Part shown: positions 27,715 to 27,831 of the stretch, in pieces
Layout of the letters: each line of letters starts with the position of its first letter
How positions within the stretch are numbered: the first letter of the stretch is position 1
IMG/VR virus record: IMGVR_UViG_3300014208_001418
Direction: 5' to 3' (one strand)
DNA length: 54,277 nt
Source of the DNA: a virus
Position numbers and translations under genes: made by a program
Notes under the pieces: model-generated
What the model saw: only the letters and a program-made list of their open reading frames with translations
The model's database searches: none
Told to the model about the DNA's origin: nothing

Positions 27715-27831
27715 TTATGATACTAAATGTTGAATTTGTCAGACTATGACCTTTTTCCCACCATAAAACCATAGTCCTTGCAAAACCTATCCAAAAACAT
27801 AGTCTGATAACAACAGAATTTAGTATCATAA
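27715..27831 (+). ncRNA. Long hairpin with canonical bulge-helix-bulge; candidate circular-RNA precursor
   Basis: 14-bp outer stem, GTTG/CAAC helix, AAT and AGA bulges, 13-bp inner stem. Confidence 0.65.

What the first reader, a model, noticed from the sequence alone, without database searches (positions are those of the whole stretch)
27715..27831. Non-tRNA bulge-helix-bulge hairpin predicted to release an ~82-nt circular RNA
Seen: 5' arm TTATGATACTAAAT-GTTG-AAT-TTGTCAGACTATG and 3' arm CATAGTCTGATAA-CAAC-AGA-ATTTAGTATCATAA. This gives two 3-nt bulges around a 4-bp helix, the same geometry as the tRNA intron at 54027-54101. Known: archaeal EndA cuts BHBs and RtcB ligation circularises the excised piece. 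Inference: 27735-27816 is excised as a stable circle. Its loop carries TTTTTCCCACC, shared with the 23.1-23.5 kb hairpins, suggesting a circular regulatory RNA made by host splicing enzymes.
Basis: partly seen in the sequence, partly recalled or inferred. Interest (0 to 1): 0.8.

Follow-up and report, generated by a model that had tools for sequence, protein, structure and literature searches.

The report
tRNA-type intron in viral mRNA tail
A large archaeal virus-like element carries, in the untranslated tail of one of its mRNAs, a hairpin shaped exactly like the site where archaeal cells cut introns out of tRNA. The host's tRNA-splicing enzymes should therefore cut out an 82-base piece and close it into a ring; a related element has the same device with a completely different sequence.

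Summary
The 117-nt hairpin at 27715-27831 is real. It folds as a canonical hBHBh' motif (14 bp, 4-bp central helix, 13 bp, two offset 3-nt bulges) on the coding strand, with the same polarity as the element's own intron-bearing tRNA-Gln.

It lies 21 nt after the stop of a small conserved ORF and 9 nt before two T6 tracts. It is therefore that mRNA's 3' UTR and has no promoter of its own.

In 2.43 Mb scanned on both strands, only one other hairpin is as good: L007:305-418, in a related element, on the coding strand just upstream of grx-nrdD. It has the same dimensions (13/4/14, 81-nt insert) but no sequence similarity, and 22 of 30 equivalent pairs differ on both sides. A third relative (L008) carries L007's leader without the insert: 49/54 identical once the predicted intron is removed.

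These look like BHB introns in untranslated mRNA regions. Candidate host lineages encode tandem-domain EndA and RtcB.

The excised stem-loop resembles a promoter-driven hairpin RNA at 23374-23453 (P 0.007) and shares a CCACC loop motif with two others, so the ring is probably a small-RNA product.

Cleavage, circularity and function are untested, and no target was found.

The parts
27361..27387 (+). Promoter of the unit: TATA-like TTTAAATA (27361-27368) plus the element's (GTA)n word GTAGTAGTAGTAGCA (27373-27387)
   Evidence: Sequence. The word GTAGTAGTAG has 36 matches against 2.4 expected, nearly all on + before genes.
27427..27693 (+). ORF88, a small acidic protein; the hairpin lies in its 3' UTR
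   Evidence: ORF list. Only itself found among 5.8 billion proteins. A syntenic 76-aa homologue sits in L006:5318-5545 (32% identity, E 2e-5) behind the same promoter word.
27715..27728 (+). Outer helix h, 5' strand (14 nt; 5' exon side)
27729..27732 (+). Central 4-bp helix H, 5' strand GTTG (exon side)
27733..27735 (+). 5' bulge AAT; predicted cut between 27734 and 27735
   Evidence: Geometry. The cut position is inferred by analogy with the tRNA-Gln BHB of the same window and PMC4090602.
27735..27816 (+). Predicted excised intron / 82-nt circle: 13-bp stem, 49-nt G-poor loop, 7-nt junction loop
   Evidence: Not shown experimentally.
27749..27797 (+). 49-nt loop (A19 C16 T12 G2), predicted unstructured, carrying TTTTTCCCACCATAAAA
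27811..27814 (+). Central helix, 3' strand CAAC (intron side)
27815..27817 (+). 3' bulge AGA; predicted cut between 27816 and 27817
   Evidence: inferred as above
27818..27831 (+). Outer helix h, 3' strand (14 nt; 3' exon side)
27841..27866 (+). Two T6 tracts (27841-27846, 27861-27866), the likely archaeal termination signals of the unit
   Evidence: Sequence. Role inferred from the known oligo-T termination of archaeal RNA polymerase.
27900..27926 (+). Next promoter (TTTAAATA plus GAAGTAGTAGTAACA) for grx (28003-28242) and nrdD (28417-32046)
23374..23453 (+). Hairpin RNA H3, directly behind its own promoter word; resembles the excised stem-loop
   Evidence: Local alignment score 16.0 against 9.6 +/- 1.8 for dinucleotide shuffles, P 0.007. 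Fold -31.6 kcal/mol, z -6.6.
23142..23310 (+). Hairpin RNAs H1 (23142-23195) and H2 (about 23245-23310), whose loops carry CCCACC / TTTCCCACC
   Evidence: All three intergenic CCACC sites of the window lie in the H1, H2 and BHB loops.
53994..54136 (+). tRNA-Gln(UUG) with a 68-nt BHB intron (54033-54100). This is the internal control showing that this element's transcripts depend on host EndA.

Best explanation
The hairpin is a tRNA-type (bulge-helix-bulge) intron in the 3' untranslated region of the ORF88 mRNA of a roughly 148-kb archaeal virus-like element.

Proposed steps:
1. The unit is transcribed from the TATA/(GTA)n promoter at 27361-27387, through ORF88 and the hairpin, to the T6 tracts at 27841-27866 (inferred from sequence).
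2. The RNA folds into h(14)-B(3)-H(4)-B(3)-h'(13). This is shown as the MFE fold.
3. The host splicing endonuclease EndA cuts after the second nucleotide of each bulge, at 27734|27735 and 27816|27817 (inferred).
4. RtcB rejoins the exons, leaving a 14-bp hairpin with the 7-nt loop GUUGAAA ahead of the terminator. It also closes the 82-nt intron into a ring (inferred).

The ring is a 13-bp stem that displays a 49-nt, G-poor, unstructured loop. It resembles the promoter-driven hairpin RNA H3 and shares a CCACC loop core with H1 and H2. I therefore take the ring to be the functional product: one member of the element's hairpin small-RNA set, made exonuclease-resistant and released from an mRNA tail by host enzymes. 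Its target is unknown.

Confidence that the motif is a genuine EndA substrate is about 0.75. Confidence that the ring is also the functional product is about 0.45.
For: - Canonical geometry and polarity, identical to the element's own tRNA-Gln BHB. It is the best BHB in the window; the tRNA is second.
- The mirror-image motif on the minus strand would not be canonical. All flanking genes, the promoter and the terminators are on +.
- In 2.43 Mb scanned on both strands, only two hairpins have 10/10 + 4 + 10/10 pairing: this one and L007:305-418. Both lie in the 114 kb of the same NrdD-defined element family (72-80% identity), roughly P 0.002. Both are on the coding strand just upstream of grx-nrdD.
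- The two share dimensions (14/4/13 with a 49-nt loop against 13/4/14 with a 46-nt loop; 82-nt and 81-nt inserts). All 31 pairs are standard in each, yet 22 of 30 equivalent pairs differ on both sides.
- L008:735-789 equals L007 with the predicted intron removed: 49/54 identical, z 8.2. The best single deletion is 78-83 nt starting at 316-325, which includes the predicted 81 nt at 324.
- Candidate host lineages (Methanoperedens, Methanolobus) encode EndA with two tandem domains in one frame, and RtcB. PMC4090602 describes alpha2/alpha4 enzymes as strict for the BHB motif.
- No RNA-processing enzyme was found among the window's ORFs.
- Precedent for a BHB intron in an mRNA UTR with a sequenced circular product: HVO_1309 (PMC7714728).
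- Resemblance of the excised part to H3 (P 0.007). Intergenic CCACC occurs only in the H1, H2 and BHB loops, and the summed shared substrings give P 0.01.
Against: - No RNA data of any kind. Transcription, cleavage, ligation and ring stability are all inferred.
- Only two instances exist. They cannot be aligned by sequence, so 'compensatory change' assumes common descent or common design.
- The L007/L008 comparison lies in AT-rich quasi-palindromic DNA. The 5' boundary is ambiguous, and neighbouring deletion models score only 1-4 points lower.
- The syntenic 3' UTR of L006 has only a short hairpin and cannot be aligned with the window's (z 1.2).
- The ensemble probability of the exact BHB core is modest: 0.13 here and 0.26 in L007, although only 0.01 for the tRNA.
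- No target was found. Loop-to-start-site duplexes are no better than shuffled loops. Matches in 284 related genomes are at chance level or in coding sequence.
- L007's loop lacks the CCACC motif.
- The H3 similarity rests on P 0.007 before correction for three comparisons.
Confidence: 0.45

Rival explanations
1. It is a neutral or selfish BHB mini-intron. The motif is cut and the exons are rejoined by EndA/RtcB, but the ring is a by-product with no role. The element simply tolerates introns that come and go in harmless untranslated positions.
For: - Presence/absence between L007 and L008 at a conserved leader.
- Absence at the syntenic site in L006 and at the grx-upstream slot in L009 and L016.
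- No sequence conservation between the two inserts and no target found.
- The element family is rich in other selfish inserts: inteins with LAGLIDADG domains in NrdD and PolB, and an HNH/NUMOD3 gene.
Against: - There are no other copies of either insert in the loci, IMG/VR, 185,579 species genomes or JGI metagenomes, so there is no sign of mobility.
- Perfect 13-14-bp helices on both sides and conserved insert size are more than EndA needs in a dispensable UTR.
- The resemblance to H3 and the shared loop motif point to a used RNA.
Confidence: 0.25
2. It is a cis-acting processing site. EndA cutting, with or without religation, serves the mRNA. It might trim or remodel the 3' end, leaving a 14-bp capping hairpin or a 2',3'-cyclic phosphate end. 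It might also uncouple upstream transcripts from grx-nrdD. What is removed does not matter.
For: - Position at the very 3' end of a transcription unit in the window, and between trx and grx, 18 nt before the grx start, in L007.
- HVO_1309 expression depends on EndA (PMC7714728).
- A short hairpin plus a T-tract occupies the same place in L006.
Against: - It does not explain why the excised part keeps its size and shape in both cases, or why it resembles H3.
- The two contexts differ (3' UTR before a terminator against an intercistronic leader), so no single cis role fits both.
Confidence: 0.12
3. It is an ordinary 3'-end or terminator hairpin (or a protein-binding hairpin) that is not cut. The bulge-helix-bulge look is a coincidence.
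For: - A stable hairpin lies 9 nt upstream of a T6 tract.
- The BHB core has only 0.13 ensemble probability.
Against: - Given a 7x7 interior loop, four staggered pairs in the canonical polarity are expected about 1.4% of the time (own estimate from + strand base composition). It happens twice, independently, on the sense strand.
- Other units in the window end without such hairpins.
- The simple consensus terminator scan reports no terminator-like site here.
Confidence: 0.1
4. It is a DNA-level element: a MITE with terminal inverted repeats, an integron attC-like recombination site behind a gene cassette, or a replication or packaging signal.
For: - An imperfect palindrome directly behind a small, fast-evolving ORF resembles a cassette with its attC.
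- The slot upstream of grx is variable among relatives: hairpin, mini-CRISPR-like array or nothing.
Against: - The 7-mers flanking the inner repeat are not direct repeats (1/7 and 2/7 identical), so there is no target-site duplication (sequence).
- There are no further copies anywhere searched.
- The GTTRRRY/RYYYAAC core sites are absent from the stem bases, and L007's stems are pure A/T.
- Cumulative GC skew shows no turning point here.
- None of these models predicts the 3+4+3 offset twice.
Confidence: 0.03

Closest known systems
BHB intron in the 5' UTR of Haloferax volcanii HVO_1309 mRNA (Schwarz et al. 2020, PMC7714728)
   Same: A BHB motif in an untranslated part of a protein-coding transcript. 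A short intron (46 nt there, 82 nt here) is released as a circle by EndA plus a ligase, and the coding sequence is untouched.
   Different: That case is chromosomal, in a 5' UTR, and proven by circRNA-seq and in vitro cleavage. This one is on a virus-like element, in a 3' UTR (intercistronic in L007), has 13-14-bp perfect flanking helices, and is unproven.
Archaeal pre-tRNA introns and their circular products, including the tRNA-Trp intron that carries a C/D box guide RNA (PMC4090602, PMC12558985), and metazoan tricRNAs (PMC4536317)
   Same: The same motif, polarity and enzymes, with a functional small RNA delivered as an excised circular intron. The element's own tRNA-Gln has such an intron.
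   Different: There is no tRNA around it and no C/D boxes or k-turn. The spliced 'exon' is only a hairpin in an mRNA tail.
cbf5 pre-mRNA BHB intron of Crenarchaeota (PMC2738675)
   Same: A BHB intron in an mRNA, with gain and loss among relatives.
   Different: cbf5's intron interrupts the coding sequence and needs the relaxed crenarchaeal enzyme. Here the intron is non-coding and the motif is strict.
Circular pre-rRNAs, and the circular permuted SRP RNA of Thermoproteus (PMC4731332)
   Same: EndA acting outside tRNA to make a stable circular non-coding RNA from a long processing stem.
   Different: Those are universal housekeeping RNAs. This is a small RNA of unknown role on a mobile element.
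Intercistronic BHB hairpin in a halovirus replication operon
   Same: An archaeal virus mRNA carrying a BHB hairpin between genes, with its shape kept in related viruses.
   Different: A different virus group and host and a different size. I did not examine that locus.

Membership tests
Archaeal hBHBh' substrate of the tRNA splicing endonuclease EndA | Two 3-nt bulges on opposite strands separated by a 4-bp helix | tested here: met
   AAT and AGA around GTTG/CAAC. The MFE fold shows exactly this.
Archaeal hBHBh' substrate of the tRNA splicing endonuclease EndA | Canonical polarity: each bulge lies 3' of its strand of the central helix, as in pre-tRNA, where anticodon-loop bases 32-35 form the exon side of the central helix | tested here: met
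   Same layout as the window's tRNA-Gln BHB. PMC4090602 states that the first two anticodon bases lie in the central helix. The minus strand gives the mirror form.
Archaeal hBHBh' substrate of the tRNA splicing endonuclease EndA | Flanking helices h and h' on both sides, needed by the strict alpha4/alpha'2 enzymes | tested here: met
   14 bp and 13 bp, all standard pairs. Candidate host lineages have tandem-domain EndA.
Archaeal hBHBh' substrate of the tRNA splicing endonuclease EndA | Motif lies on the sense strand of a transcribed unit | tested here: inconclusive
   It sits between a promoter word, an ORF and T6 tracts, all on +. No RNA data are available.
Archaeal hBHBh' substrate of the tRNA splicing endonuclease EndA | Structure kept in relatives through changes on both sides of pairs | tested here: met
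   L007:305-418 has the same geometry, and 22 of 30 pairs differ on both sides. Caveat: only two sequences, and homology is not provable by sequence.
Archaeal hBHBh' substrate of the tRNA splicing endonuclease EndA | Cleavage by EndA, then exon ligation and intron circularisation by RtcB | not testable with these tools
   Needs RNA-seq junction reads or an enzyme assay.
tRNA intron | The motif is embedded in a tRNA (acceptor, D and T arms around it) | tested here: not met
   ARAGORN with and without the intron option finds no tRNA here, and Rfam finds none down to E 10.
C/D box sRNA carried in an intron | C box RUGAUGA and D box CUGA forming a k-turn | tested here: not met
   CUGA is present, but it lies inside the perfectly Watson-Crick inner helix, and there is no C box (sequence). 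Rfam snoRNA hits are at chance level.
MITE / small DNA transposon | Terminal inverted repeats flanked by a direct target-site duplication, and several copies | tested here: not met
   Flanking 7-mers are 1/7 identical (2/7 in L007). It is single-copy in the window, the loci, IMG/VR, the species genomes and the metagenomes.
Integron attC site | Paired R''/R' core sites (RYYYAAC / GTTRRRY) at the stem base, and a nearby integron integrase | tested here: not met
   The stem bases are TTATGAT/ATCATAA here and A/T-only in L007. No recombinase was found among the ORFs scanned.
Hairpin-type transcription terminator | Stem-loop immediately followed by a T-run | tested here: inconclusive
   A T6 tract starts 9 nt after the stem. 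The consensus scan reports none. In L007 no T-run follows.

The most novel reading that the evidence does not exclude
A family of 130-185-kb virus-like elements of methane-cycling archaea uses the host tRNA-splicing machinery as an RNA-production tool. Members of the element's own hairpin small-RNA set are embedded as BHB introns in mRNA untranslated regions and released as exonuclease-resistant rings that act in trans on host or element gene expression. These introns are gained and lost at conserved leaders, which would be the first natural record of BHB-intron turnover in viral mRNAs.
Probability: 0.3. Interest if true: 0.7.

Novelty: new variant of a known kind. Interest (0 to 1): 0.55.

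Why it matters
In the library searched I found only a few EndA substrates reported outside tRNA and rRNA: the cbf5 mRNA, one Haloferax 5' UTR and the Thermoproteus SRP RNA. I found none on a virus or virus-like element.

If confirmed, this would show three things:
- Mobile elements of methane-cycling archaea rely on host tRNA splicing for their mRNAs or small RNAs as well as for their tRNAs.
- A stem-loop small RNA can be issued either from its own promoter or as a circular intron.
- BHB introns come and go in untranslated leaders.

The case is directly testable: two predicted junctions (27816>27735 and 27734>27817) and a natural intron-plus / intron-minus pair (L007 / L008).

Tried and rejected
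Searches for further copies or relatives:
- Exact 18-mer of the arm in IMG/VR: four hits, all inside unrelated coding sequence.
- Both outer arms with a gap in IMG/VR: one hit, L005. It is a hairpin in a tRNA cluster of a phage that carries a permuted tmRNA gene, a bacterial trait, so I read it as a bacterial phage. It shares only the 12-nt arms, so it is a coincidence.
- The same pattern in 185,579 species genomes: none. A 22-mer in JGI metagenomes: none.
- Phage GenBank records, blastn: none.
- Single-protein scans of IMG/VR with ORF88, grx, the 182-aa ORF and both NrdD extein parts: none.
- NrdD alignment scans of IMG/VR and the species genomes gave only relatives at 53% identity or less, with no further family members.
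Whole records behind L006, L009 and L016 are not held. The rest of the 148-kb element and the other family contigs could therefore not be scanned.

Candidate BHB hits dismissed:
- L086:18122 is a small membrane-protein ORF and does not fold as a BHB.
- L006:2001 lies inside an ORF.

Ideas tested and dropped:
- Homology of the window's outer stem with L006's short hairpin: not supported (z 1.2).
- Loop as antisense to translation starts: no better than shuffled loops. grx, the only GGTGG Shine-Dalgarno in the window, is not a top hit for this loop.
- Host origin or target in 284 Methanosarcinales-order genomes: chance-level matches, two of them in a coding gene and one in a terminator-like hairpin.
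- Ring-encoded peptide: the window ring has stops in all frames. L007's 81-nt ring has one open frame, which is not unusual for 27 codons.
- Rfam: no family for either hairpin.
- MAFFT cannot align the two hairpins in register, so pair counts were made by script and no covariance model was built.

Full report
**What is there.** Positions 27715-27831 form a 117-nt imperfect inverted repeat. As RNA on the + strand its minimum-energy fold has these parts:
- a 14-bp outer helix;
- a 4-bp central helix (GTTG/CAAC), flanked by a 3-nt bulge on the 5' strand (AAT, 27733-27735) and one on the 3' strand (AGA, 27815-27817);
- a 13-bp inner helix;
- a 49-nt loop.

The fold has -31.3 kcal/mol and z -6.8, and none of 200 shuffles is as stable.

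**Is the geometry really that of a splicing site?** The review PMC4090602 describes the motif as a 4-bp helix flanked by two 3-nt bulges, with the first two anticodon bases in the central helix. This fixes the polarity. On each strand the bulge follows the central-helix strand in the 5'-to-3' direction.

My own scanner found this layout in the window's tRNA gene: outer TTTCGGC, central CTTT, bulge GAT, inner GATCGGT, then ACTGATC, AAAG, TAA, GCCGAAG. ARAGORN finds that gene only with its intron option. By the bulge rule it is tRNA-Gln(UUG) with a 68-nt intron at 54033-54100.

The hairpin at 27.7 kb has the same polarity on the + strand. On the minus strand it would be the mirror form. On the + strand only 14 places in 54 kb have at least 5+4+5 pairs, and the two best are this hairpin (14/13) and the tRNA (7/7).

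**Context.** The window is part of a virus-like element with these features:
- nearly all genes on +;
- family B DNA polymerase and NrdD, both with inteins;
- an RFC-like ATPase, a PD-(D/E)XK nuclease and an HNH/NUMOD3 gene.

Earlier notes of this scan describe it as a 148-kb circular archaeal element from groundwater. The largest contig on record for its proteins is 148,445 bp.

Around the hairpin the order is as follows:
- TATA-like TTTAAATA plus the element's promoter word GTAGTAGTAGTAGCA (27361-27387). The word has 36 matches against 2.4 expected.
- ORF88 (27427-27693).
- 21 nt of spacer, then the hairpin.
- 9 nt of spacer, then two T6 tracts (27841-27846, 27861-27866).
- A second promoter of the same kind (27900-27926).
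- A glutaredoxin-like gene (28003-28242) and nrdD.

The hairpin therefore has no promoter of its own. It is the 3' UTR of the ORF88 mRNA. No RNA-processing enzyme was found among the window's ORFs.

**Relatives.** ORF88 has no relative in the protein database search. Scans with the hairpin sequence found nothing real.

The N-terminal extein of NrdD, however, has a tight clade of about 21 proteins at 72-80% identity on contigs of up to 184 kb. The next best matches, near 53%, are from Methanosarcinales and Methanoperedens. An alignment of this clade retrieved six family loci from JGI metagenomes: L006-L009, L015 and L016.

I ran a stricter scanner (10+4+10 positions, at least 9 of 10 paired in each flank) on both strands of all loci and the window, 2.43 Mb in total. 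Only two places had perfect pairing: the window hairpin and L007:305-418. Both belong to the 114 kb from this family, which is roughly P 0.002.

L007's hairpin lies on the coding strand between a thioredoxin gene (Pfam E 2e-19) and grx-nrdD. That is the same slot upstream of grx. Its fold is also a BHB (-27 kcal/mol, z -4.7). It has 13/4/14 bp, bulges GAT and AAA, a 46-nt loop and a predicted 81-nt intron (324-404).

The two hairpins have no sequence similarity. Of 30 structurally equivalent pairs, 22 differ on both sides, 1 on one side and 7 not at all. Two unrelated sequences that realise the same 3+4+3 offset, with the same helix lengths and on the sense strand, are hard to explain except by selection for this RNA shape.

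**An intron-less allele.** In L008 the leader between grx and nrdD (735-789) matches L007's leader once the predicted intron is taken out. The match is 49 of 54 positions, z 8.2 against shuffles.

Among all single deletions of 0-124 nt, the best scores (32) fall at 78-83 nt starting at 316-325. This range includes the predicted 81 nt at 324. No deletion scores 23, and a 98-100-nt deletion that also removes the 3' arm scores 28.

The region is an AT-rich quasi-palindrome. The 3' exon match is firm (30/32), but the 5' side is ambiguous. I read this as consistent with the splice sites to within about 3 nt, not as proof.

The other relatives vary at this slot:
- L006 has an ORF88 homologue (32% identity, E 2e-5, same promoter word) followed only by a 7-bp hairpin and a T-tract.
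- L009 has a four-repeat CRISPR-like array.
- L016 has nothing.

The window and L006 3' UTRs cannot be aligned (z 1.2), so I make no claim about that pair.

**Host enzymes.** Genomes of Methanoperedens (two) and Methanolobus, reached through the NrdD loci, each encode an EndA with two tRNA_int_endo domains in one 354-396-aa frame, and RtcB. PMC4090602 states that alpha4 and alpha2 enzymes are strict for the BHB motif. The hairpin meets the strict form.

PMC7714728 shows that a BHB intron in an mRNA UTR (HVO_1309, 46 nt) is cut by EndA in vitro and appears as a circle in circRNA-seq.

**What the excised piece looks like.** The 82-nt piece is a 13-bp stem with a 49-nt loop (A19 C16 T12 G2) that is predicted to be unstructured. 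It has no C/D boxes and matches no Rfam family.

- TTTTTCCCACC is unique, but TTTCCCACC occurs twice in the window, in this loop and in the loop of hairpin H2.
- In 5,753 nt of intergenic DNA, CCACC occurs three times, all in the loops of H1, H2 and this hairpin. CACC occurs seven times, four of them in the four hairpin loops.
- The excised stem-loop aligns with H3 (23374-23453) along the 5' arm and the TTTTTC...CACCATAA loop segment. The score is 16.0 against 9.6 +/- 1.8 for dinucleotide shuffles, P 0.007.

H1-H3 each follow a promoter. The ring thus looks like one more member of a small set of stem-loop RNAs, issued through splicing instead of from its own promoter.

**What I could not find.** No target emerged. 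Duplex energies between the loop and the 56 translation-start regions are no better than for shuffled loops. Matches in 284 genomes of the Methanosarcinales order are at chance level. L007's loop lacks CCACC.

**Rivals.**
- A selfish or neutral mini-intron fits the presence/absence pattern and the lack of conservation. It does not fit the single-copy state, the perfect long helices or the similarity to H3.
- A purely cis role fits the positions but not the conserved size of the excised part.
- A plain terminator hairpin does not explain the same offset twice.
- A MITE fails because the 7-mers flanking the inner repeat are not direct repeats (1/7 and 2/7 identical) and no copies exist.
- An attC-like site fails for lack of core sites.
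- An origin fails on GC skew.

**Verdict.** The hairpin is most likely a genuine EndA/RtcB substrate (about 0.75), that is, a BHB intron in an mRNA 3' UTR of a virus-like element. Its 82-nt circular product is probably a small RNA of the element's hairpin-RNA set (about 0.45 for the whole chain). It is a new variant of a known kind. Everything beyond the structure is inferred.

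Noticed in passing
window 32733-32956 (+): Rfam HEARO (RF02033, the IscB-associated omega-RNA family) matches at 86.5 bits (gathering score 83), E 3.8e-16, over the full model. The ORFs that follow (32811-33116, 33106-34182) gave no Pfam match, so there is no recognisable IscB next to it. An earlier first-reader note treats this stretch as an undescribed structured leader.
   Followed up: no
L009:5470-5735 (+): A mini-CRISPR-like array on a 153-kb family member: four copies of GTTTAAGTTATAACAGTGAGGATTAAAAGA (one with a small insertion) with spacers of about 36 nt. 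It sits directly upstream of grx-nrdD, the same slot that holds the BHB hairpins in the window and L007.
   Followed up: no
window 23142-23453 (+): Three promoter-driven hairpin RNAs (H1 23142-23195, H2 about 23245-23310, H3 23374-23453) with large loops. All intergenic CCACC sites of the window lie in the loops of H1, H2 and the BHB hairpin. H1's best predicted partner among 56 start regions is grx, the only gene with a GGTGG Shine-Dalgarno.
   Followed up: partly
L007:283-438 and L008:735-789: The same AT-rich leader (91% identical after removal of the insert, more conserved than the 80%-identical NrdD proteins) precedes grx in L007 but nrdD in L008. Either grx or the leader has moved between these relatives.
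   Followed up: partly
window 53994-54136 (+): ARAGORN misses the tRNA gene by default. With the intron option it calls Lys(ttt) with the intron shifted by 2 nt. The BHB cleavage rule gives Gln(UUG) with a 68-nt intron whose inner part is itself a long hairpin.
   Followed up: partly
L024:12483-12730 / L132:16483-16730 (-), L037:12552-12629 / L166:16551-16628 (-), L059:13568-13666 / L067:13434-13532 (+): Three BHB-like hits (9-10 of 10 pairs on each flank) recur in pairs of Methanosarcinales-type chromosomal contigs. They may be real cellular BHB sites or conserved coding sequence.
   Followed up: no
table; loci L006-L016: The element's NrdD belongs to a tight clade (72-80% identity) found on contigs of 130-185 kb from several metagenomes. 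One of them is deposited as a 'Pedobacter sp.' MAG contig, probably mis-binned. The nearest cellular NrdDs (about 50-53%) are from Methanoperedens and other Methanosarcinales, which suggests the host range.
   Followed up: partly
window 26664-27212 (+): The 182-aa ORF two genes upstream of the hairpin has a faint Pfam match to the Cas9 RuvC domain (E 0.0044, below the cut-off).
   Followed up: no
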